Below, piece after piece: positions 21,195-31,913 of a stretch of DNA of 64,000 nucleotides (positions are counted from its first letter, which is position 1; every line of letters starts with the position of its first letter). The translations under genes were made by a program, and so were the position numbers. Source of the stretch: an uncultured Chloroflexia bacterium (lineage in GTDB: Bacteria > Chloroflexota > Chloroflexia > QHBQ01 > JADMIH01); NCBI GenBank assembly GCA_963797095.1, contig CAWCNY010000003.1, forward strand, positions 544,001-608,000. The letters run 5' to 3'. The notes under the pieces were generated by a model that was not told the origin of the DNA, made no database searches, and saw nothing but the letters and a program-made list of their open reading frames with translations.

Positions 21195-22596
21195 TGTACT
21201 GCGCCCTTGGTGTTGGACACAAATGGGGCTTAGGTTAGTCAATAGCCCCGACCGGCTGGGCTGACCGGCTAGCGGCGAGTGCGTCCTGGCTCCCCACGCC
21301 ACCACCCAGATATACCTGGTTGCAGCTCTGGTTGCGCTGAACCCACTGCGCCTCGAACTCAGCAGGGGTCATGTACCCCAGCGATGAGTGTATCCGCTTG
21401 TGCTGGTACACCTCGTCCAGGAACCGCCCGATCTGCTGGTAAGCATCATTGTAGTCGATGTATTCCGATAAATCTACCTCCTCTTCCTTGATGGTTCGAA
21501 TCACCCGTTCCGCGTACCCGTTCTGCCACGCCTGCCCCACCTCAGCCATGCTGATGGCAACTCCCGCTCCCACCAGCATCTGCACGTAGCCACCCGCCGC
21601 GTACTGTACTCCCTGGTCGGAGTGGTGGATTTGAGGAGTGCCAACGAGCAGTGCCCGCCGCAGTGCCGTTTCAGTAAGGTCAGCATCCAGCCACCGCGAG
21701 AGGTGCCACCCACGGATTGAGCGAGTGAACACATCCATGACCACAGCCAAGTAGACAAACTCGCTCCCGAGGCGCACGTAGGTGATGTCCCCGACCCAAA
21801 GCTGCTCTGGTCGCACCACCGCCAGCCCCTCTACCAGGTTGGGGTAGCGTGGGAACGAGTGGGCACTATTGGTCGTGCGCTTCTTACGGCGAGGGATGCG
21901 TCCTTGCAGGCCCATCTCACGCATCAACCGCCGCACTCGCTTGTGGTTGGCCCGAAGCTCGTACCCACCCGCTTCCTTGCTTCTGCGTAGCTGATGGGTG
22001 ATGCGCCTGTATCCATAGGTAGACCAGCGGTCAGCAACCGCTTGGATGGCCTCTTTTACCTCTTGGTCTGGCGCACTCTGGACCCGAGACGTGGTCTGAG
22101 CTTGAGTGTAATGGTAGTAGCTGCTGCGAGGGTAGTCCAGCAGACGGCAAACCAGCTGTACCGGGTAGCTCTCCTCTTGAACGAGCTTCACGACTGCCCG
22201 CCTTTTCTGCTCAGCTCTGCATTCAAGATCGCAGACCCCTTTTTTAGGATTTCCATCTCCAGAGTCATGCGTCCAACCAGCCTCTCCAACTCGGCTATCC
22301 GTTCTGCTTGTGGGTCGGCCACTCGTCCGGAAGGGCCGTTCTCGAAGAGCTTGGGGGCACTTGCCACGAAATCGGCTTTCCATCTGGACAGCAATTCGGG
22401 CTTGATGGAGTACTCGCGAGAGGCCTGAGCTACACTCTTGGCTCCTGTGAGGATTTCCAGCACTACCTGCGCTTTGAACTCGGCGCTGAAACTCCGCCGA
22501 TTTTGCATCTGAGGCATCTTGTTGCGCTCCTTTCCGTTCTTGGACCATCATACGACATTGATTATCCGCTGTGTCCAAGTCCCGGGGCGCACTACA
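21195..22596 (-). mobile_element. IS3-family element
   Basis: 26-bp imperfect IRs TGTACTGCGCCC..TTGGACAC / GTGTCCAA..GGGCGCACTACA; flanks differ (GGGG vs GAGG). Confidence 0.9.
21235..22517 (-). CDS. IS3 transposase OrfAB (orfA 22188-22517; -1 frameshift at A6G 22239-22245)
   Basis: RRSFSAEFK HTH; WVGDITY, HHSDQGVQY, NGYAER, RIHSSLGY. Confidence 0.9.
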
Positions 22597-23563
22597 GAGG
22601 TAACTCCATCGAGTGGAGAGTTAGCCCTCTCCCAGTGGATTCTGTCCCACTGTCCCCACGTAAAAGGGTCTCTGACCCCGGCCACGCCAGTAGTAAGCAA
22701 TGAACCTGGTGGAATGCAGGCCACGCAAGCGCCGCTGACTGGTAGCCTAAACCTGGTCATGCGCAAGGGGAAGTCAGATAGGTCAACGCAAGTGAACTGC
22801 CATCTAAAGCTTCGTGATTCGGCAAGAGTGCAATAAGGCTGAGACACTCTCACCAAAATGGTAAGTGGGTGGTCGAGCAAATCCAGTCGCTGCTCGACGA
22901 CAGGACACACTCCCACCGGAGCATAGGCAGGACCTTCCCTGGACGCATCTCAACACCTGGAACTACGGTAAGCCCGTTGAGTTCTCCACTTGGCATGCGG
23001 AGTAAGCCGACCGTAAGGAAGGCAGAATTACTCATCGGGTAAAAGACGCTGGAGCAAGCGAAGGCCCGCAGTAATGCGCGGGATAGGGGTTCTTTTCAAG
23101 ATTTGCCCCACGCCGAAAGGCGGCTGACTTCCAGCTAGCTTCTGACGATAGAACTAATGTGAAGGAACCAAACTGACGTGCAAGATAGAGTCACTTCTGA
23201 CATCGGAACGCCAGGATCTGCTTTCAGCGAGATACCCAAACAAGGCACTCCCATTGATTGGGACGCTATTGACTGGGCTATTGTTAACAATCGGGTCAGG
23301 AACCTGAGACAAAGGATTTATCGTGCGACCGCAGCGGGTCAGTGGAATCAGGTGCGCAGCCTGAAGAAGCTGATGATGCGCAGCTACGCAAACCTGCTAC
23401 TGTCAACGCGAAGAGTGACCATGGACAATCACGGCAAGAAAACGGCTGGCATTGATGGTCAGACTGCTCTTACCGCCAAAACCAGGACGCAAGTGATCCG
23501 CGAGATGCCGGAGTACAAACCACGACAGGTCAAACCAGCCCGGCGGATATATATACCTAAGGC

Positions 23564-25039
23564 TATTGGTGACAAGTTAAGGTAATCACAGGGATGTCAA
23601 ACAGCAGATTGAGCATGAGAAGCACGACAACGACGTTTCTGCTTGAGCAGGTCAAGGTCCTTGGCCTTGCGAGCCAGGTAGTCTACCACATCAAGCTCCA
23701 GGGTAGGGTCTCGCCCTTGCTCTCGCAGACGTTGACAGGCTTGCGTGTAATGGTACAATGCCCGGAACACCATCTCCAACGATATTGCCTTGAATGGCTG
23801 CCTTACCGCCTCAGCCACTGCGTCGGTGAGGTCCACCAGCACCGCATACAGTATCCAGGTGGCCCATACCTGCACCTGCACGGCGTTGGACGCTCCACAC
23901 CAGAAGTAGGCCAGTCCCAGCAGACGCTTGACGATGTTGAAGGCATCTTCCATGCGCCACCGCTCAGCATACAACGCCGCCACCTGCTCAGCCGGCAATC
24001 TGTGGGGGTCGGTCACGTTGGTCAGGTAGCGGTACCACTTGCCTTTCACCGATATTTCCACTACCCGCATCGGGTGAGCACAGCGTGTGGTGCCCTGACC
24101 CAACACCACTTCATAGTCGTGTATGCTGTCCGTCTGTTGCAGCACCCGCACCACTTGTATGGCCGCATTCGCCTTGAGAGGGGTCAGCATACTCACTCCT
24201 CGCTCGGTGAGGCGGTCGAAGAAGGTGTAGTTGACAAAGCCCATGTCAAACAAGGCCAACAGCCCACTCTCCAACGTCTCGATGATCCCGTCCCAGAAGA
24301 GTTGGTCGTGCGCCGCACTATCCGGTTCATAAATGATGTGCACAGGCAAGCGAGAACACAGGTCGAGCACCCCCGCGATGCGCCCACCCAACAGGGCCGA
24401 GTGCTTGTCAGGGAGCTCTTGCAGCAGACCCACTTTACGCAGCAAAGTGTCAAGGGTGGACCCATCGAAAGCCACCACACCCGTGTAATGCCCCTTGGCC
24501 CAGGTGAGCACGCTTGGCAAGGGGCGCACTCGAGCGTGCCAGCGGTCATGCATGAGGGGCAGCACATCCAGGAGCACCTGCCTGAACAGCGAGGCGGGCA
24601 TAGTCCTCAGACGCTGGTTTACAGCTTGTTGCGACACCGACACAGGAGGCACCCACAGTACTCCATCTTCATGCAGTACCCTCACGGCTTCTCGCACCGA
24701 GCCGATCTGACGCCAGATCATGCTCAACGCGAAGGCCATCATCACCGGCAAAGTCAGGATGCGGTGGCGCAAGCCCATGACCTGATAGGCAGCTATCTGG
24801 GCATAGGTAGCAGGGTGGATAAGTTCAGTCAGCCTCTGCTCCACTGCAGCGGCAGGCGGTCCCACAGTAGGACGCTTGGAGCGGTCCCGCTGTATAGCGC
24901 GAGTATGGCGGACGCTGCTGTTCTTTGGTTTGGAAGGGTTGGAAGATGTGCTCATGCATGATTCTACCCAACCTCTCGACCCAAATCCAGCAGCAAAACA
25001 GCTTGACATCATGCACATGACCTTAACTTGTCACCAATA
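23564..25039 (-). mobile_element. IS4-family element
   Basis: Perfect 20-bp IRs TATTGGTGACAAGTTAAGGT; 9-bp TSD ACCTAAGGC at 23555-23563 and 25040-25048. Confidence 0.93.
23597..25018 (-). CDS. IS4-family transposase
   Basis: FDGST, FDMGF, YLTN, Y..RW.ME..F..VK (YREK signature). Confidence 0.9.
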   Translation of the reverse strand: MCMMSSCFAAGFGSRGWVESCMSTSSNPSKPKNSSVRHTRAIQRDRSKRPTVGPPAAAVEQRLTELIHPATYAQIAAYQVMGLRHRILTLPVMMAFALSMIWRQIGSVREAVRVLHEDGVLWVPPVSVSQQAVNQRLRTMPASLFRQVLLDVLPLMHDRWHARVRPLPSVLTWAKGHYTGVVAFDGSTLDTLLRKVGLLQELPDKHSALLGGRIAGVLDLCSRLPVHIIYEPDSAAHDQLFWDGIIETLESGLLALFDMGFVNYTFFDRLTERGVSMLTPLKANAAIQVVRVLQQTDSIHDYEVVLGQGTTRCAHPMRVVEISVKGKWYRYLTNVTDPHRLPAEQVAALYAERWRMEDAFNIVKRLLGLAYFWCGASNAVQVQVWATWILYAVLVDLTDAVAEAVRQPFKAISLEMVFRALYHYTQACQRLREQGRDPTLELDVVDYLARKAKDLDLLKQKRRCRASHAQSAV

Positions 25040-25574
25040 ACCTAAGGCCAATGGCAAACAAAGGCCGATCGGCATCCAAACTCTCAAAGACCGCATCGCG
25101 CAGGCAGTTATCAAGAACGCACTGGAACCAAGTTGGGAGGCCCAATTCGAGCCGAACAGCTATGGCTTTCGTCCGGGCCGCAATTGTCATGATGCCATCG
25201 TGCAATGCTGGAACTGGTTTAAGGGCGCAAACGGACACAGCTTTGTGCTCGACGCCGATATCCGGGGTGCGTTCGACAATATCAGTCAGGAATATATCCT
25301 CGACGCCATTGGCCAAACGCCGGGACGCGAGTGGATAGAAGCATGGCTGAAGGCAGGCTATGTAGAGGCCGAGATCTTCCACGCCACTGAGAGTGGTACC
25401 TCACAAGGCTCTGTCGTCTCACCATTACTCGCCAACATTGCCTTGGACGGTATGGAACGCTGGCTTGGTCAATGGACTAACCAGCGAACTTACACCAACA
25501 AGCGCGGCAAACAGGTGGGATGTGTACATAAACAGGCTAATCCACGCTACGGTTACATCCGTTTTGCGGACGAC

Positions 25575-28081
25575 GTGCGCCACATAACCAAGATAATGGA
25601 TTCCTTTCGCAGAAAGGGGAGGTACGGAAGACAAGACCTCCGGGTCAACAGCTTACCTGGAAGCGAAAGCTGAAGGGAACAGTAGCATGCTGCTGAAGCG
25701 GAAGATACTTGAAGATGCTTAGGGTATCGTTCTGCAAGACCCGCGTGATATGGTGAGAGCCAAACTGCCCAAACCTTAGTCTCCAGCGATGCAAGCGAAT
25801 ATTCTCCGACCATAGCATCTATTGGCGGAGCCATTGTGATAGGGCGGTTAAGTCGTCGCCGCCTGAACCTTTCGCACAATGGGCGGTCAGGAACGACCTG
25901 ACTCAAGGAGACGGAACAGGCACCTACGTCACGCTCGATACGTCCATAACCTTGGGAATGTGGGATCGCCTACAGGGCGCGAGCCCCATGGCGACGGAGC
26001 CACCATATTACTCCGAGGACGGGAAAGCCGTCTACATGGCAACATAGCAACATAGCAACATAGCAACATGGCAATGCCTTGCAAAGAAGATAAGTTGCCA
26101 ATGGGGAAGGGTGGCAGGTGTTGTGAGACCCAATCAGGGAGGTACGCGAGATGCGAAACGCCGAAACTGTGCTGGGGATCATCCATGAACGCGGCAAGAA
26201 GGGCTTGCCATTGGAGGACGTGTACCGGCAACTGTTCAACCCAGACTTGTATCTACTCGCTTATGGGCATATCTACCGCAATAACGGGGCTATGACACCT
26301 GGCGTAACAGACGAAACTGTGGATGGGATGTCGCTGGCCAAGATCGAAGCCATCATCGGTGCACTACGACAGGAACGATATCGATGGACGCCAGTACGAC
26401 GCGTGTACATCGCCAAGAGAAACTCGACCAAAAGGCGTGGGCTAGGAATCCCTTCTTGGTCGGATAAGCTGTTGCAAGAAGTGATACGCCTTATCCTACA
26501 GGCATATTACGAACCGCAATTCAGCCCGGCCTCACACGGCTTTCGCCCTCAACGTGGGTGTCACACCGCGCTAAGCGAGATCCAACATAAGTGGGTAGGC
26601 ACAAAATGGTGGGTGGAAGGCGATATCAGAGCGTGCTTCGACACTCTGGACCACACAGTCCTGATATCAATCCTACGCGAGAAGATCTTCGACAATCGCT
26701 TCTTACGCTTGATCGAACGCCTCCTGCAAGCCGGATACCTGGAAGAATGGCGTTATCACTGCACCCTGAGTGGAAGCCCACAAGGTGCCGTGCTCAGCCC
26801 CGTTCTTTCGAACATCTACATGGACAAGTTGGACCAGTTTGTCGAGAAGACACTGCTTCCCAGGTACACGTGCGGAAACCGTCGTAGACTTAATCCTGAA
26901 TGGCAACGGCGACAACAGCTTGCTCGGCAATTGAAGGAACATGGTGACAAGAAAGAGGCCTGCAAAATGCGTCGTCTGATGCAGCAGGTCCCCTCCTTGG
27001 ACACACACGACCCCAACTACCGACGCCTGCGTTACTGTCGTTACGCCGATGATTGGCTACTCGGTTTCAGCGGCCCACGAGAAGAAGCCCAGGAAATCAA
27101 GTCTGCAATCCGGGACTTCTTACGAGAGGATCTCAAGTTGGAACTCTCTGAGGAAAAGACGCTGATTACCCATGCGCGGACCAAAGCTGCGCATTTCCTG
27201 GGCTATGATATCGTGGTGCTCAATAACGACCACAAGCTGGATCGCCGAGGTCACCGCAGCATCAACGGCGGGATCGGACTGAAAGTACCAGCAGAGGTTG
27301 TGAAAGTGAAATGCAAACGCTATCTGCGCCACGCCAAACCGATCCACCGACCGGAACTTGAACACGATGCTGTCTTCAGTATCGTGGCACAATACCAGCA
27401 GGAGTACCGGGGTCTCGTGGAATACTATCGACTGGCCTTCAACCTTCACAAACTCAACCAACTGAAATGGCTAATGGAACGCTCCCTGGCACAGACACTG
27501 GCCTCAAAACTCAAGATCAGTGTCCGATCTATCTACAAGCGATACCACACCTTAGTACGGACAGATCAGGGAACACGTGCAATCCTCGAAGTCAGGGTAG
27601 AGCGTGATGAGGGCGATCGTGATAAGGGCGATAAAGGAAGAAAACCGTTGATAGCGCGGTGGGGCGGTATTTCACTCGCACGCAACTCCAAGGCAATACT
27701 GAACGACGCGCCCCTACAAATCAGCGGACCGAGAGCGGAACTCGAACGACGCCTCTTGGCACAAGCTTGTGAGCTTTGTGGTTCACGAGAAAACATCGAG
27801 GTGCATCATGTACGAGCACTCAAAGATCTACGGACCAAAGGACGCGCAGAACCGCCTTTCTGGATGCAGGTGATGGCAGCTCGCAAGCGCAAGACGCTGG
27901 TGGTCTGTCGCGAGTGCCACGATAGCATTCATGCTGGTCGCAACACTCAAACTGCTGCCGTGAAAGCCGCGAGAAGGAAAACACTGGAGAGCCGGGTACT
28001 CCGAAAGGCGTAAGCCCGGTTCGGGGAGAGGCGGACAGAAAAGAGCTGCGCAAGCAGCACCTCGCTGGCCGCCCACTCCAC
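25575..28081 (+). mobile_element. Group II intron (ML/IIA-like), apparently intact, nested in the outer intron
   Basis: GTGCG 5' end at 25575, domain V 27989-28022, ends CCAC at 28081; removal restores FADD|FII. Confidence 0.93.
26151..28013 (+). CDS. ltrA: Group II intron reverse transcriptase/maturase with HNH domain
   Basis: SHGFRP, GSPQG, RYADD, FLGY, CELC..HHV..CRECH. Confidence 0.93.
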   Translation: MRNAETVLGIIHERGKKGLPLEDVYRQLFNPDLYLLAYGHIYRNNGAMTPGVTDETVDGMSLAKIEAIIGALRQERYRWTPVRRVYIAKRNSTKRRGLGIPSWSDKLLQEVIRLILQAYYEPQFSPASHGFRPQRGCHTALSEIQHKWVGTKWWVEGDIRACFDTLDHTVLISILREKIFDNRFLRLIERLLQAGYLEEWRYHCTLSGSPQGAVLSPVLSNIYMDKLDQFVEKTLLPRYTCGNRRRLNPEWQRRQQLARQLKEHGDKKEACKMRRLMQQVPSLDTHDPNYRRLRYCRYADDWLLGFSGPREEAQEIKSAIRDFLREDLKLELSEEKTLITHARTKAAHFLGYDIVVLNNDHKLDRRGHRSINGGIGLKVPAEVVKVKCKRYLRHAKPIHRPELEHDAVFSIVAQYQQEYRGLVEYYRLAFNLHKLNQLKWLMERSLAQTLASKLKISVRSIYKRYHTLVRTDQGTRAILEVRVERDEGDRDKGDKGRKPLIARWGGISLARNSKAILNDAPLQISGPRAELERRLLAQACELCGSRENIEVHHVRALKDLRTKGRAEPPFWMQVMAARKRKTLVVCRECHDSIHAGRNTQTAAVKAARRKTLESRVLRKA

Positions 28082-29606
28082 TTCATCATAACAGCAGCCA
28101 CGAGGGAGGAAATCGAGGCTATTCAACCTCATGTGGTAGCCTGGCTGGCCGAGCGCGGACTCGAACTCAACACCGAGAAAACCCATATCCGCAACATTGC
28201 AGATGGTTTCGACTTCTTGGGTTTCAACATCCGTCGCTACGGCACGAAATGCCTAATCAAGCCCCAGAAGGAAAAGGTGCAGACCAAACTGCGTGAAATC
28301 AAGCAGTGGCTGGTCACGCATCCGAACGTTGGTCCCGACGACGTGATTGACGTGCTAAACCCGATTCTGAGGGGTTGGGCGAACTACTACAAGCATGGGG
28401 TGAGCAAGAAGATGTTCGCCACCTTCAGCCACCGGTTAGTGTTACTACTTATCCGATGGGCGAGACGGCGACACCCGGGTAAGGGTCCACGGTGGGTACT
28501 TCCGCGTTACTTCACGAGAGTAGGCGGGAACAACTGGGTCTTCTACGCCAAGACAAAGAACCGGCACGGTAAGATGACGAAGACCTATCTGTATCGGATA
28601 GGGCAGACGCCAATTACTCGCCACATCAAAGTCAAAGGCGCAGCATCCCCAGACGACCCAACGCTGGGCGAATACTGGGCGGCACGGCAGACAAGATATG
28701 GCAAAAGCTATTTTGCTGTGGGGTCAAAGCTATACCGGGTAGCCGCAAAGCAGCACTGGCGATGTCCCCTGTGCCGAATGCACTTGTTCAATGAAGAGCG
28801 TATTCATATTCACCATGAGCAATCGGTAGCAGACGGTGGAACAGATGAGGAGGAAAACCTCAGCATCTTACACGAAGTCTGCCACCGCGCAACATTTGGT
28901 AGAAGACCCGCAGTAAAGTCGGTGGAAGCCTGAGCCGGATGATCGGCGACGGTCTTGTCCGGTTCTGTGAGGAGGGAGGCGGGGCGACCCGCTCTCCCTT
29001 ACTCGATAAGTACCTGCTCTGCCTTGAACTGACCGACCCTGGTTTTGACCATACCGTGTTCAGCGAGTTTCGCACTCGCCTGTTGGATCACAACGCTGAG
29101 CGCCAACTGTTCGACACCATGCTTGCACTCGCTCAAGACCGGGGTCTGCTCAAAGCCGGTGGCCGTCAGCGCAGCGACTTAACTCATGTCCTAAGTGCTG
29201 CACGCACCCTCAACCGGCTGGAATGTGTTACCGAAACCCTACGTCACGCCCTCAATGTGCTAGCGACCTCCGTCCCGCAGTGGCTACGAGCACACACTAC
29301 ACCAGAGTGGGTGGAGCGCTATGGCTTACGTGCCAGTGAATTTCGGCTGCCCAAAGGCGATGCCAAACGGCTGGCGTGGGTTGAGCAAGTTGGGCGCGAT
29401 GGGATGGCCTTGCTCGATGCCATCTACGCAGCAGACCCGGCAGACCCGGCAGACCCGGCAAATGGTCCAACTCCAGCCTCTTTGCGCGAGGTGCGGGGTC
29501 TTGAGTAGGTGCAGATACTGCGCCGGGTTTGGATCCAGAAGTTCTGGATGAACCAGGATCAATTGCAATGGCGCGACAACGACAACACCCCACCAAGCGG
29601 CACTTA

Positions 29607-30893
29607 GGAGCCTTCCGCAGATAAGGTGATCAAAGTAGCTGAGGCTTGATAGTGTAGTTCCATTCCCCGTGGAAGGCATCTTTGAACAGATTGAGGGCAG
29701 CCACTTGCTCATCAGTGACCTTGATCCCTGTCGGATATGCATGGCTGTCCTTGAGCGCCCTCACCACTAACCCCTCTTGGGTGGTAGTATGCGAGATCAG
29801 TTCCAACACCACTTCCATAGACGTGAGCGGGGTGGCCCGCCAATTTATTGATATGTACGAAAACACTCGATGCTCTATCTTGTTCCATTTGCTGGTAGCA
29901 GGGGGATAATGCGCCACCGTGATGGCCAGTTGTTCTTCATTGGCCAGTGCCTGTAGCTTTTGCTTCCACAGGCGGTTTCTCACCCCATTGGAGCCTCCTC
30001 CATCAGCGGTGATCAGCAGTTCCTTTTTGCCTGGATAGAGGGTTTTGCCCCACTTCTGCCACCACCTGCGGATACTCTCCACCGCAAACTCAGCCGTATC
30101 ATGGTCAATACCCACATTCACAAACCCCACGTTCACAAACCCCACGTTATGCACCAGGTCATATATCCCGTAGGGGATGGCCTTGCCATCGGCCAGGGAA
30201 ACAAAGTCATACACCGATACCACCCTCTCTTCCCCTTGAGCCTGCCATTCCCGTCCGTTGTTCCTGAACTGGCCTATCAACTCCTTCTTCTTGCAGTCAA
30301 CGGAGATGATAGGAGCGCCTTTGTGTTCAAACTCTTTGCACCGAGCGTTGATGTGAGTAAATTGCTCATCCCGGTCAGGGTGCGATTGGCCTTCGATATT
30401 CTTCTTGTTGACGCGCAGAGAAAATCTCTGCTCGTGCAGCAATTCGGCCAGTGCTGACTTCTTGATGTGATGCCCTTTGCCTTCAAGGGCTTGCACCAGG
30501 TGTGCCAACGATTTGGTGGTCCATCGTACAAGGCTCATCGGGTCACCCTTGGGTTCCAATTCCCTCTCCAGATCGGGGAGCAGGGTGGGATCGGTCTGTG
30601 CAAGCTTTTTCATGCCCCCACCAGGCTTGCGGATGCGTTCTCCTGGTTGATAGTTGTCCCCTGCCTCCCGTTCTTTCAGACCCCGCTTGACCGTGTTGAG
30701 GGAGACCCCTGCCTCCCGAGCTACTGTGCTGGTGCTTCCTCTGCGTTGAGCCTCGGCTGCCAGGTACTGTCTCCACTGCTTCTCATTTAGCAGTGTCCGA
30801 AGCTGTTGGTATTCTTGTTCGGTCGAGAGCTTTTCCATACTCTCTATCTTCGCATATCTCCCTCTCTATGTCAACTAATTCTCGGAAGGCTCC
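29607..30893 (-). mobile_element. ISAzo13-family element
   Basis: IRs GGAGCCTTCCG / CGGAAGGCTCC; 3-bp TSD TTA at 29604-29606 and 30894-30896. Confidence 0.92.
29630..30838 (-). CDS. ISAzo13-family transposase
   Basis: GDPMS..RWT, ISVDCKKKELIG, ADGGGSNG, SKWNKIEHR, FHGEWNYTI. Confidence 0.93.
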   Translation of the reverse strand: MEKLSTEQEYQQLRTLLNEKQWRQYLAAEAQRRGSTSTVAREAGVSLNTVKRGLKEREAGDNYQPGERIRKPGGGMKKLAQTDPTLLPDLERELEPKGDPMSLVRWTTKSLAHLVQALEGKGHHIKKSALAELLHEQRFSLRVNKKNIEGQSHPDRDEQFTHINARCKEFEHKGAPIISVDCKKKELIGQFRNNGREWQAQGEERVVSVYDFVSLADGKAIPYGIYDLVHNVGFVNVGFVNVGIDHDTAEFAVESIRRWWQKWGKTLYPGKKELLITADGGGSNGVRNRLWKQKLQALANEEQLAITVAHYPPATSKWNKIEHRVFSYISINWRATPLTSMEVVLELISHTTTQEGLVVRALKDSHAYPTGIKVTDEQVAALNLFKDAFHGEWNYTIKPQLL

Positions 30894-31913
30894 TTACATC
30901 AACTCGCCTTATGACATTGATATACGCTACGCTCACAAAGGCTCCATCACCTGGACCGGCTTCAAGGTGCATCTGACCGAGACTTGTGACGATGAAGGAC
31001 CAAACTTGATTACCAACGTTGAAACCACTTCGGCCTCAGTAGCGGATGACGCTGTAACCGGGTCAATTCATGCTTCTTTGGCTGAGCACCAGTTGCTACC
31101 CGACAAGCATGTCGCCGACACGGGGTTCGTCAATTCGAAGCTGTTCGTCGAGAGTACACAAGAATACGGCATCACCCGGATCGGTCCGATGCGCTCTGAC
31201 AACAATTGGCAGGCTAAAGAAGGAGGCGGTTTCTCGGCACAGGACTTTGTGATTGATTGGGCGCAACAACGAGCCATCTGTCCACAAGGCCAAGTCAGCA
31301 GCAGTTGGACCAAAGCACTAGACCGTGTGAAGAACGAGGTCATCAAGATCAAGTTTGGCAAGCACGAATGTGGGGTCTGTCCGAGCGTAGCAAGATGCAC
31401 GCGATCAGACCCGCCGCGACGAAGCATCAGTATCAGACCGCAAGCGCAGCACGAGGCATTGGTGGCTGGACGGCGACATGAACAAAGTGAGGAATTCAAG
31501 CAAGAATATGCGCGACGGGCGGGGGTAGAAGGGACAATTGCGCAAGGGGTGCGGTCGTGCGGGCTGCGTGGTTCGCGCTACTATGGATTGGCAAAGAACC
31601 ATCTACAACACCTGATGATAGCGGCGGGAATAAACCTGATAAGGATTGTACGCTGGCTCATGGGCGAGGAGAAGGCCAAAACTCCTGTGTCTGCGTTCGC
31701 ACGTTTGTATCAGCAGGCCGCATGATCACTATTCGCCACCAATATCAAAGTGCGGATGAACCCCTTTCCCCTTTTTCGTTATCAAATGGCTCCCTTTTCT
31801 ATTGACAAAATCACCAGTTCAGCGAAGAGCAGATAATTGGGATCCTGCGGGAAGCCGAGGCAGGTCAGAAAGTGGCCGATGTCTGCCGCAAGTACGGAGT
31901 AAGCCAGAGCACC

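What the first reader, a model, noticed from the sequence alone, without database searches (positions are those of the whole stretch)
25569..28084. Twintron: a group II intron that targets the catalytic FADD codons of another intron's reverse transcriptase
Seen: the inner intron starts (GTGCG, 25575) right after TTT GCG GAC GAC and ends just before TTC ATC. A hairpin GGCGGT-TAAGTCGTC-GCCGCC (25843-25863) displays GTCGTC, the exact complement of the last six exon bases GACGAC (EBS1/IBS1). The preceding AA can pair with the 3' exon TT, the delta pairing known for IIA introns. GCGAA at 25795 is a candidate EBS2. Inference: its homing site is the most conserved RT motif, so it is a hyperparasite of retroelements. 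Its own motif is coded GAT GAT, a poorer EBS1 match. Twintrons are known; this junction-level targeting logic is the notable part.
Basis: partly seen in the sequence, partly recalled or inferred. Interest (0 to 1): 0.75.

Follow-up and report, generated by a model that had tools for sequence, protein, structure and literature searches.

The report
Intron homing into another intron's RT
A complete mobile group II intron sits exactly after the active-site (F-A-D-D) codons of another group II intron's reverse-transcriptase gene, and belongs to a lineage that always inserts there; this habit was already described for a different intron lineage.

Summary
It has GTGCG at its 5' end, Rfam domain V/VI, a bulged branch A and an intact 620-aa LtrA-like protein (RT, maturase, HNH). 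It splits an outer intron's RT between ...IRFADD and FIITA....

EBS1 (GTCGTC, 25852-57) lies in a hairpin loop whose stem shows compensatory changes. EBS2 is GCGAA(T) at 25795.

Fourteen further relatives from this genome, cyanobacteria and metagenomes sit at the same RT site (twelve with the 5' junction read, two 3' only). In the 14 introns aligned (window included), IBS1-EBS1 pairs in 84 of 84 cells, with compensatory changes at -1 and -11. The -11 change occurs only in the window and matches its Phe (TTT) target.

Inner proteins are 64-91% identical, while the outer RTs are 32-57%. This indicates repeated homing, not co-divergence.

Homing into RYADD codons is in print (Tourasse & Kolstø 2008; Dai & Zimmerly 2003), but for a small, endonuclease-less, "B-like" lineage. 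This scan also met it before on other DNA. What looks new is a second lineage, LtrA-like and endonuclease-bearing, with the same target. I could not see the 2003 paper, Simon et al. 2008, or the intron database.

The window's outer copy is dead, cut by two IS elements. An intact twintron lies on contig C2.

The parts
21195..22597 (-). IS3-like insertion sequence that removes the first ~29 nt and the 5' exon of the outer intron
   Evidence: Copies at 98.8-100% identity lie elsewhere in the genome. Its ORFs carry HTH_Tnp_1, HTH_21, rve and rve_3. The intact outer 5' end, GTGCGAC..., is seen only in the C2 and C4 copies and is absent from the window.
22598..23562 (+). Outer intron, 5' part: ribozyme domains I-IVa (truncated) and the start of the RT ORF (23178 onward)
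   Evidence: 99.8% identical to C2. RVT_N domain.
23563..25040 (-). IS4-like IS (DDE_Tnp_1 transposase, 23597-25018) inserted in the outer RT, with 7-bp target duplication CCTAAGG (23556-62 and 25041-47)
   Evidence: The empty site is present in the C2 copy. A second IS copy lies on C1. Pfam.
25041..25574 (+). Outer RT ORF, motifs 1-5, ending ...GYIRFADD; holds IBS2 (25562-25567) and IBS1 (25569-25574)
   Evidence: RVT_1. TIGR04416 positions 62-215.
25575..28081 (+). Inner group II intron (IIA / mitochondrial-like), 2507 nt
   Evidence: GTGCG...CCAC ends. Rfam RF00029. A second copy on C2 differs at one base, 26891.
25795..25800 (+). EBS2, GCGAAT; pairs with exon -8 to -12 (GC of the Ala codon plus TTT)
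   Evidence: Position 25798 is A here and U in 13 relatives, matching TTT against TAY.
25843..25863 (+). Domain Id3 hairpin. The loop carries delta (AA, 25850-51) and EBS1 (GTCGTC, 25852-57)
   Evidence: RNAalifold and pair counts.
26151..28013 (+). Inner intron-encoded protein, 620 aa: RT, maturase (X), DNA-binding and HNH endonuclease domains; own motif is RYADDW
   Evidence: Pfam RVT_1, Intron_maturas2 and AI2M-like_HNH. LtrA match at E 5.6e-121.
27989..28079 (+). Inner domain V (27989-28022) and domain VI (28023-28079), with an unpaired branch-point A at 28075
   Evidence: Fold at -49 kcal/mol, z -4.8. Rfam.
28082..28933 (+). Outer RT ORF, continuation: FIITAA..., RT motifs 6-7, GIIM maturase, HNH
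   Evidence: Pfam. TIGR04416 positions 216-353. T.el4h protein 6me0 at E 7e-57.
28930..29007 (+). Outer intron domains V/VI; the outer intron ends at 29007
   Evidence: Rfam RF00029, 47.3 bits. Similarity to the C2 copy drops after ...CTCGAT.
29008..29508 (+). 3' exon of the outer intron: an IS1182-like (DUF772) transposase gene, resuming at KYLL...
   Evidence: Pfam DUF772. The C2 and C4 copies show the 5' exon ...RIDW before the intron.

Best explanation
The inner element is an apparently intact retrohoming group II intron of the LtrB type (IIA RNA; RT/maturase/HNH protein). It belongs to a lineage whose guide sequences are set to the codons of RT motif 5.

**How the target is read.**
- EBS2 (GCGUAC, or GCGAAU in the window) reads the Tyr or Phe codon plus the GC of the Ala codon.
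- The four-fold degenerate third base of the Ala codon (-7) is left unpaired.
- EBS1 (GUCGUC) reads GAY GAY. Its two G residues face the codon third positions, so C or U is accepted.
- The AA just 5' of EBS1 (delta) reads the TT of the following Phe or Leu codon.

The intron RNA would reverse-splice into DNA right after ...ADD and be copied by its own RT. This last step is inferred from the known LtrB mechanism.

**Result.** The product is a twintron. The outer intron's RT can be translated only from RNA from which the inner intron has spliced.

**This genome.** The window's intron is the one member retargeted from YADD to FADD by a single EBS2 change. The window copy sits in a dead outer intron, 5'-truncated by an IS3-like element and with its RT split by an IS4-like element. 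An intact twintron is on contig C2.

**Shown versus inferred.** Shown here: boundaries, pairings, covariation, site fidelity across the lineage, and divergence of the outer hosts. Inferred: actual splicing, reverse splicing and endonuclease use.
For: **Anatomy.**

**Site fidelity.**
- Window, L003, L010, L032, L033, L037, L039 and L040 all read R-[YF]-A-D-D | (F/L).
- Among 21 of the 80 metagenome loci examined, L064, L066, L067, L069, L070, L074 and L075 read RYADD at the 5' junction. L065 and L068 show an RT-like 3' exon only.

**Phylogeny.**
- In the 37-row IEP tree, the eight site-confirmed rows plus L045 form one group with SH-aLRT 100.
- In the 73-row tree they form a 20-row group (SH-aLRT 84) with no member at a determined non-RT site. 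That group plus its 5-row sister has support 98.

**Pairing (14 introns).**
- IBS1-EBS1 is paired in 84 of 84 cells and IBS2-EBS2 in 90.5%.
- At -1, C-G changes to U-A in L003 and L040.
- At -11, A-U changes to U-A in the window only.

**Independent homing.**
- Inner IEP identity is 64-91%, while the outer RT 3' part is 32-57% in the pairs with 129-209 aligned residues; pairs involving the degenerate outer RTs of L032 or L037 aligned over only 27-67 residues or not at all. For L033/L040 the figures are 91% against 36%.
- L066 and L067 have identical IEP rows but different outer 5' exons.

**Role of delta.**
- All 14 sites whose 3' exon was read cleanly begin with TT: 8, plus L064, L065 (register corrected by 3 nt), L066, L067, L069 and L070. 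L068 would be a fifteenth, but its 5' junction is unresolved and a non-RT candidate 5' end was seen.
- In this genome, the uninterrupted YADD sites are followed by CT twice, GA once, TG (two other ML-type RTs and the inner intron's own RT) or GT (the L003-type intron's own RT).
Against: - No RNA data: no run was listed, so splicing is untested.
- The delta pairing never varies (AA with TT), so it has no covariation support. The occupied-versus-empty contrast rests on a handful of sites in one genome.
- The 20-row group has only moderate support (84).
- Three of its rows (L045, L076, L078) have no determined junction. For L068 a non-RT candidate 5' end was seen, so it may be truncated or rearranged.
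- L074 and L075: the 3' junction was not placed cleanly.
- EBS-IBS pairing is also needed for splicing. Covariation alone therefore does not prove repeated homing; that rests on the divergence contrast.
- Both copies in this genome sit in near-identical outer introns and no inner-free outer copy exists. Homing by the inner intron within this genome is not shown.
Confidence: 0.85

Rival explanations
1. There was one ancient insertion followed by co-divergence. The inner and outer introns have been inherited together, and EBS-IBS complementarity is kept only because splicing needs it. The lineage is not a repeated invader of RT genes.
For: EBS-IBS pairing serves splicing as well as homing. L010 and L039 are sister inner introns and sit in related outer RTs (57% identical).
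Against: Inner IEPs are far more alike (64-91%) than their outer RTs (32-57%). The sister pair L033/L040 (91%) sits in outer RTs that are 36% identical and of different types (FVIFCE against FIITGS). L066 and L067 have identical IEP rows with different 5' exons. Some targets are LtrA-like RTs (L070, L074), while others are T.el4h-like.
Confidence: 0.05
2. In this genome the inner intron is only a passenger. The two copies arose because the whole twintron, meaning the outer intron carrying an unspliced inner intron, moved into a second IS1182-like transposase gene. The inner intron itself did not home here.
For: The two twintrons are alike throughout: inner 1 difference in 2507 nt, outer 99.8-100% in the segments compared. 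The 3' exons beyond the intron are visibly far more divergent, roughly 70% by my own eye-count of the sequences printed (one search gives 93.6% over a 1142-nt hit that includes the intron). No outer copy without the inner intron exists.
Against: It does not explain how the inner intron reached an FADD target with a matching EBS2 change. It also does not explain the second, 70%-identical inner-type intron at YADD|TTC of a different RT in the same genome (L003). It concerns only the last duplication and is compatible with the main explanation.
Confidence: 0.35
3. The element is a member of the already described RYADD-homing lineage (B.th.I3, M.a.I5, UA.I3, P.l.I2).
For: The insertion point and the IBS1/IBS2 content are the same (target AGGTATGCTGATGAC|T in PMC2504315, section 13).
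Against: That lineage is described as about 1.8 kb, 'B-like' and lacking the endonuclease domain (PMC2504315). This intron is 2507 nt. Its protein matches LtrA end to end and has an HNH domain and the Intron_maturas2 type of maturase. In the IEP trees its neighbours are LtrA-like introns at other targets.
Confidence: 0.03
4. Target choice is made mainly by the intron protein recognising conserved DNA around motif 5, and the RNA pairings are secondary.
For: LtrA-type proteins are known to contact flanking positions (recalled, not from a call). T at +5 is invariant in the 8 sites.
Against: Outside -13 to +2 the 8 target sites share little at the DNA level (consensus line). The changes at -1 and -11 are matched in the RNA. 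L068 has G at +5.
Confidence: 0.1

Closest known systems
RYADD-homing introns B.th.I3 (Bacillus thuringiensis israelensis), M.a.I5 (Methanosarcina acetivorans), UA.I3 and P.l.I2 (Photorhabdus luminescens): Tourasse & Kolstø 2008, PMC2504315, section 13 (passages read); Dai & Zimmerly 2003, RNA 9:14 (not held; known to me only through citations)
   Same: Insertion is immediately after the R-Y-A-D-D codons of an RT gene, with IBS2 and IBS1 formed by those codons. Most create twintrons in other group II introns.
   Different: Those are about 1.8 kb, of a 'B-like' structural class and without an endonuclease domain, and are thought to use replication forks. This lineage is 2.4-2.5 kb and LtrA-like (IIA / mitochondrial-like), with an HNH endonuclease and a delta-delta' pairing into the 3' exon. 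The window's member targets FADD, not YADD.
Ll.LtrB intron with LtrA (Lactococcus lactis), PDB 5g2x
   Same: The protein has the same architecture and is similar over its whole length (E 5.6e-121). EBS2, EBS1 and delta have the same layout in domain I.
   Different: Ll.LtrB sits in a relaxase gene (recalled). This lineage sits in RT genes of other introns.
Thermosynechococcus elongatus twintrons TeI3 in TeI4 (Mohr, Ghanem & Lambowitz 2010, PMC2882425; passages read)
   Same: [quoted passage not shown] Some introns in that genome also target IS elements, as the outer intron does here.
   Different: There the inner introns are ORF-less IIB1 relatives of the outer intron and insert between the first two ATGs of the ORF. 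They do not insert at the catalytic motif.
Nested intron arrays of Methanosarcina acetivorans (as summarised in Zimmerly & Semper 2015, PMC4424553, 'Twintrons' section, read)
   Same: Repeated site-specific homing of introns into other introns provides a perpetual homing site.
   Different: [quoted passage not shown] Here there are two levels, plus an IS transposase gene as the outermost host.

Membership tests
Group II intron | 5' GUGYG and 3' AY ends, with domain V/VI ahead of the 3' end | tested here: met
   GTGCG at 25575 and ...CCAC at 28081. RF00029 at 54.5 bits against gathering 40. Domain V hairpin and bulged A at 28075.
Group II intron | Intron-encoded RT/maturase in domain IV | tested here: met
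   RVT_1, Intron_maturas2 and AI2M-like HNH. TIGR04416 at 258 bits, below its 300-bit cut-off.
Group II intron | EBS1/EBS2 in domain I complementary to the 5' exon | tested here: met
   6 of 6 and 5 of 6 pairs in the window. 95.1% of cells paired across 14 introns, with controls.
Group II intron | Self-splicing through a lariat | not testable with these tools
   No RNA run was listed.
IIA / mitochondrial-like (ML) class | IEP of the LtrA/aI2 type, with the Intron_maturas2 maturase and a C-terminal HNH | tested here: met
   That this Pfam family marks the ML class is recalled knowledge.
IIA / mitochondrial-like (ML) class | Delta immediately 5' of EBS1, pairing with the first base(s) of the 3' exon | tested here: inconclusive
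   Pairing of the two bases 5' of EBS1 with TT is possible at the cleanly read sites (G.U in L064, and one base mispaired in L032, whose loop reads TTAT before EBS1). It never varies, so there is no covariation. Empty YADD sites in this genome lack TT.
IIA / mitochondrial-like (ML) class | Full IIA secondary-structure hallmarks of domains I-III | not tested
   Only part of domain I was folded.
Published RYADD-homing lineage (B.th.I3 / M.a.I5 / UA.I3 / P.l.I2) | Insertion right after the RYADD codons, with IBS1 and IBS2 inside the motif | tested here: met
Published RYADD-homing lineage (B.th.I3 / M.a.I5 / UA.I3 / P.l.I2) | IEP without an endonuclease domain | tested here: not met
   AI2M-like HNH at residues 540-590.
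Published RYADD-homing lineage (B.th.I3 / M.a.I5 / UA.I3 / P.l.I2) | About 1.8 kb and of the 'B-like' structural class | tested here: not met
   The intron is 2507 nt. The IEP is LtrA-like over its whole length. The structural class itself was inferred from the protein and not modelled.
Published RYADD-homing lineage (B.th.I3 / M.a.I5 / UA.I3 / P.l.I2) | 58-67% nucleotide identity to those introns | not tested
   No sequence of those introns was available from a tool.
Twintron | One intron inside another, with removal restoring the outer element | tested here: met
   The outer RT halves match TIGR04416 positions 62-215 and 216-353. Outer domains V/VI are at 28930-29007. The C2 copy is intact.
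Twintron | Sequential splicing, inner intron first | not testable with these tools
   No RNA data.

The most novel reading that the evidence does not exclude
There is a second, independently evolved guild of intron-parasitising introns, LtrB-like and carrying an endonuclease.

**Guide built around the genetic code.**
- G residues face the third positions of the Tyr and Asp codons.
- An unpaired base faces the four-fold degenerate Ala third position.
- Delta AA reads the TT of the next Phe or Leu codon.

Any RT encoding YADD followed by F or L would therefore be a target whatever its synonymous codons.

**A round of escape and pursuit.** The window would capture an outer RT that changed Tyr to Phe. 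That breaks the -11 pair. The inner intron restored the pair with one EBS2 change.

**Wider habit.** Sister lineages of the same protein clade sit in domain V of other introns. The whole subclade may therefore specialise in the two most conserved sequences that group II introns possess.
Probability: 0.3. Interest if true: 0.6.

Novelty: new variant of a known kind. Interest (0 to 1): 0.42.

Why it matters
If this lineage is independent of the published RYADD-homing introns, two unrelated intron lineages converged on the same few codons. That would show the RT active-site sequence to be a preferred safe harbour for retroelements that parasitise retroelements.

The set of 14 natural target/guide pairs, plus empty sites in the same genome, is a ready-made data set on how an LtrB-type intron reads its target. 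It covers wobble tolerance at codon third positions, a skipped degenerate base, and the weight of the delta pairing. This bears on targetron design.

The finding also gives a concrete, testable case of target escape (Y to F) and guide re-adaptation.

For this genome's annotation the point is ordinary. The locus is a heap of nested mobile elements, and the window's outer intron is dead.

Tried and rejected
- **RNA evidence.** No RNA holder was listed for window 25300-28400.
- **Earlier notes of this scan.** None fit this place. A search by the IEP sequence gave only LtrB-like introns at other targets. The word search found no note holding all its words, and its one partial hit was unrelated.
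- **Papers not held.**
  - Dai & Zimmerly 2003 was not held.
  - Two PMC ids tried for Simon et al. 2008 (the first recalled and wrong, the second taken from a reference list) were not held.
  - A title search found nothing.
  - I therefore cannot say whether those papers, or the Zimmerly intron database, already list LtrA-like YADD-homers.
- **Papers searched.**
  - Searches returned no paper describing one. Only PMC2504315 holds 'RYADD' together with 'group II intron'.
  - PMC8643678, PMC12584367, PMC8919778 and PMC4476101 mention twintron or YADD only in other contexts.
- **Own phylum.**
  - A 576-nt DNA search of 401 genomes matched 12, G000 included.
  - Of the 12 loci from other genomes, a 5' junction could be placed in 11, one of them (L058) on weak grounds. 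None follows xADD codons.
  - BLAST sensitivity is limited to roughly 65-70% identity or more.
- **Self-immunity through the residue after YADD.**
  - Seven of 8 genome-derived members have W (TGG) and one has V.
  - The sister Desulfosporosinus group, which targets domain V, also has W.
  - W is therefore not specific to the YADD-homers, and I do not claim it as an adaptation.
- **Junctions not determined.** L045, L076 and L078 remain open. L068 has only a doubtful candidate.
- **First flank alignment.** One search used the wrong strand of L002 and is void. It was redone.

Full report
**What is in the window**

The inner element runs from 25575 (GTGCG) to 28081 (...CCAC), a length of 2507 nt. 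Rfam's group II domain V/VI model matches 27987-28081 at 54.5 bits against a gathering score of 40. Folded alone, this stretch gives a 34-nt domain V hairpin (27989-28022). It also gives a domain VI with an unpaired A at 28075, seven bases from the end. The fold is at -49 kcal/mol, z -4.8 against shuffles.

The ORF 26151-28013 encodes 620 residues with Pfam RVT_1, Intron_maturas2 and AI2M-like HNH. Its best solved relative is LtrA of Lactococcus (5g2x), at E 5.6e-121 over residues 24-593 of the query and 26-594 of LtrA. On the protein evidence this is an LtrB-type (IIA, mitochondrial-like) intron carrying an endonuclease. The 3' exon starts with TTC at 28082.

**The host**

The host is the RT gene of a second group II intron. 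Upstream the frame reads ...NPRYGYIRFADD, ending at 25574. Downstream it resumes FIITAATREE... and continues through a GIIM maturase and an HNH domain to 28933. The two halves match positions 62-215 and 216-353 of NCBIfam TIGR04416, so removing the inner intron restores a colinear RT. The downstream half is closest to the T.el4h protein (6me0, E 7e-57). The outer intron's own domain V/VI lies at 28930-29007.

The outer intron sits in an IS1182-like (DUF772) transposase gene. The exon resumes KYLL... at 29008, and intact copies on C2 and C4 show ...RIDW before the intron.

In the window the outer intron is dead:
- An IS3-like element (21195-22597) has replaced its first ~29 nt and the 5' exon.
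- An IS4-like element (23563-25040, target duplication CCTAAGG) splits its RT.

An intact twintron lies on contig C2. Its outer RT is open for 304 residues up to FADD, and its inner intron differs at one base, 26891. No outer copy without the inner intron exists in this genome.

GTCGTC (25852-57) is the reverse complement of the last six exon bases. The hexamer occurs twice in the intron, so position matters more than mere presence. In an RNAalifold consensus of seven relatives it lies in the 9-nt terminal loop of a hairpin, and four of the seven stem pairs show changes on both sides. GCGAA(T) at 25795 pairs with TTTGC (-12 to -8), with one G.U.

**Relatives**

I collected relatives from three sources.

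*Species-representative genomes.* A protein-guided scan gave 39 loci, and the own-genome relative L003 was analysed with them. Boundaries came from Rfam hits and from alignment to the window's ends. Seven loci share the window's site:

| Locus | Source |
|---|---|
| L003 | this genome; 69% DNA identity, in a different RT gene |
| L010 | Brasilonema |
| L032 | Tolypothrix |
| L033 | cyanobacterial assembly |
| L037 | Stigonema |
| L039 | Stigonema |
| L040 | cyanobacterial assembly |

All read ...R-Y-A-D-D | F/L-V/I.... The loci at 50-60% protein identity sit elsewhere, for example DNMLKI|TSDGRKL in several Firmicutes.

*Metagenome contigs.* Of 80 loci I examined the 21 most similar. L064, L066, L067, L069, L070, L074 and L075 have RYADD at the 5' junction. 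L065 and L068 show an RT-like 3' exon only. L071 onward sit at other sites.

*Own phylum.* A DNA search of 401 genomes matched 12, this genome included. Of the 12 loci from other genomes, a 5' junction could be placed in 11, one of them (L058) on weak grounds, and none follows xADD codons.

**Formal pair count**

The count used 14 introns, with exon and guide columns named by me.

| Measure | Result |
|---|---|
| IBS1-EBS1 cells paired | 84 of 84 |
| IBS2-EBS2 cells paired | 90.5% (only the -13 pair fails, in 8 introns) |
| Whole named structure paired | 95.1% |
| Same, partners slid by 1-3 columns | 15-54% |
| Shuffles reaching the observed value | 0 of 500 |

Two exon-guide pairs change on both sides:
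- At -1, C-G becomes U-A in L003 and L040 (GAT as the last codon, EBS1 ATCGTC).
- At -11, A-U becomes U-A in the window alone. Thirteen relatives have EBS2 GCGUAC or GCAUAC against TAY (Tyr). The window has GCGAAU against TTT (Phe).

The guide G residues opposite -4 and -10 pair with either C or U (9 U-G with 5 C-G at -4; 9 U-G, 4 C-G and 1 U-A at -10). The base opposite the Ala third position (-7) is unpaired throughout. More distant relatives carry different sequences in the same loop that match their own exons (L051 CACTG, L053 TAATCC). This independently fixes the loop as EBS1.

**One lineage, many hosts**

In a 37-row IEP tree the eight site-confirmed rows, together with L045 (junction unknown), form a group with SH-aLRT 100. 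With metagenome rows added (73 rows) there is a 20-row group at SH-aLRT 84. It holds:
- all 15 rows with a confirmed 5' junction,
- the two rows with a 3' junction only,
- three undetermined rows.

No row in it has a determined non-RT site. That group plus its 5-row sister has support 98, and L071 (66% identical, non-RT site) falls in the sister. Both are quick searches with LG+G4 and no bootstraps.

Inner IEPs are 64-91% identical. Over the first 200 residues after the junction their outer RTs are only 32-57% identical in the pairs with 129-209 aligned residues; pairs involving the degenerate outer RTs of L032 or L037 aligned over only 27-67 residues or not at all. The sister pair L033/L040 is 91% against 36%. 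L066 and L067 have identical IEP rows but different outer 5' exons. Some targets are themselves LtrA-like RTs (L070 and L074, with YRRLRY.RYADD). This excludes simple co-divergence from one ancient twintron.

**The 3' exon**

All 14 sites whose 3' exon was read cleanly begin with TT: 8, plus L064, L065 (register corrected by 3 nt), L066, L067, L069 and L070. L068 would be a fifteenth, but its 5' junction is unresolved and a non-RT candidate 5' end was seen. The two bases 5' of EBS1 are AA in most members; L064 has AG, giving a G.U at +1, and L032 has AT, leaving one base mispaired.

Within this genome the uninterrupted YADD sites are followed by other dinucleotides:

| Site | +1/+2 |
|---|---|
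| C1:29304 | CT |
| C1:429442 | CT |
| C2:711879 | GA |
| two other LtrA-like RTs, and the window-type intron's own RT | TG |
| the L003-type intron's own RT | GT |

Several of these sites pair well with EBS1 and EBS2 of the L003-type intron. This fits a real role for delta-delta' but rests on few sites and has no covariation.

Its own site gives two G.U pairs, an EBS2 mismatch and a +2 mismatch. For L003 and L040 it does not hold at EBS1. The W after YADD is shared with a sister group that has another target, so I do not claim it as an adaptation.

**Mechanism**

The shown parts are the anatomy, the guide-target complementarity with compensatory changes, the site fidelity of the lineage and the diversity of its hosts.

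The inferred parts come from what is established for Ll.LtrB (recalled). The excised lariat with its protein would reverse-splice into the top strand after ...GAY GAY. The HNH domain would cut the bottom strand. The RT would then copy the intron.

The consequence is that the outer RT is broken at its catalytic motif until the inner intron splices. The inner element is thus a parasite of a parasite, and the outer intron is itself lodged in an IS transposase gene.

The two twintrons of this genome are equally alike inside and out, but their flanking exons are visibly far more divergent (roughly 70% by my own eye-count of the sequences printed; for the inner copies). The last duplication was therefore probably a move of the whole twintron.

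**What is known**

Homing into the RT catalytic motif is in print. Tourasse & Kolstø 2008 (PMC2504315, section 13, passages read) describe B.th.I3 inserted at AGGTATGCTGATGACT (RYADD). They state that M.a.I5, UA.I3 and P.l.I2 share this specificity and create twintrons, citing Dai & Zimmerly 2003. Those introns are about 1.8 kb, 'B-like' and without an endonuclease domain.

Toro & Martínez-Abarca 2013 (PMC3552965, passages read) place B.th.I3 in a group whose own motif is FADD. Mohr et al. 2010 (PMC2882425, passages read) and Zimmerly & Semper 2015 (PMC4424553, section read) cover other bacterial and archaeal twintrons.

This scan has also met YADD-homing introns on other DNA. Those notes gave me the names of the published introns, and I then checked them in the paper.

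The present lineage fails two of that family's described features, since it has an endonuclease and is LtrA-like and 2.5 kb. It therefore works like that family without belonging to it. I found no paper describing an LtrA-like YADD-homer. However, the 2003 paper, Simon et al. 2008 and the intron database were out of reach.

**Verdict**

The phenomenon is known. This appears to be a second, convergent lineage, with a neat natural series of guide-target pairs and one retargeting event (YADD to FADD). The window's own outer copy is a wreck among IS elements. Interest is moderate.

Noticed in passing
L012, L014, L029, L035, L077 (also L016, 3' exon only): Sister lineages of the same LtrA-like protein clade are inserted in domain V of other group II introns, just 3' of the tetraloop. 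The 22-nt and 16-nt flanks taken together fold into a domain V-like hairpin in 5 of 5, and 4 of 5 match a GAGC..GNRA..CGGTTC-type pattern. They form one side of a branch in the tree, SH-aLRT 84. My one literature search returned no paper holding the phrase 'inserted in domain V'.
   Followed up: partly
window 29008-29508; G000 C2 around 827331 and C4 around 274630: The outer intron itself targets a conserved ...RIDW|KYLL... site of IS1182-like (DUF772) transposase genes. It occurs in at least two such genes whose exons are visibly much more divergent than the introns, roughly 70% by my eye-count. The nesting is therefore IS gene > intron > intron.
   Followed up: partly
window 21195-22597, 23563-25040, 29630-30838: Three further IS elements pile into the same locus: an IS3-like element cutting the outer intron's 5' end, an IS4-like element in the outer RT, and an ISAzo13-type transposase (PF07592, E 6e-125) splitting the IS1182-like gene, whose rest lies at 30793-31725.
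   Followed up: partly
window 26041-26075: A short tandem run (CAACATAG, about four times) sits in the inner intron between the ribozyme 5' part and the IEP start. It is absent from the 69%-identical relative L003.
   Followed up: no
G000 C6:301510-302175 (L005, L008, L009): A related intron that matches only inner-intron positions 60-465, 527-599 and 2407-2499. It looks like an ORF-less deletion derivative, inserted after ...LYLVAVLDWHSR, which looks like a transposase/integrase core by eye; the host gene was not tested.
   Followed up: no
G000 C1:492590-494777 (L004): A 5'-truncated copy of the L003-type inner intron with the same 3' exon as L003, 100% identical over 400 nt. It is a broken second copy of that twintron.
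   Followed up: partly
L066 and L067; L070 and L074: L066 and L067 have identical intron proteins but lie in two different outer RT genes. L070 and L074 sit in LtrA-like RTs that have F after YADD, meaning RTs of the lineage's own class.
   Followed up: partly
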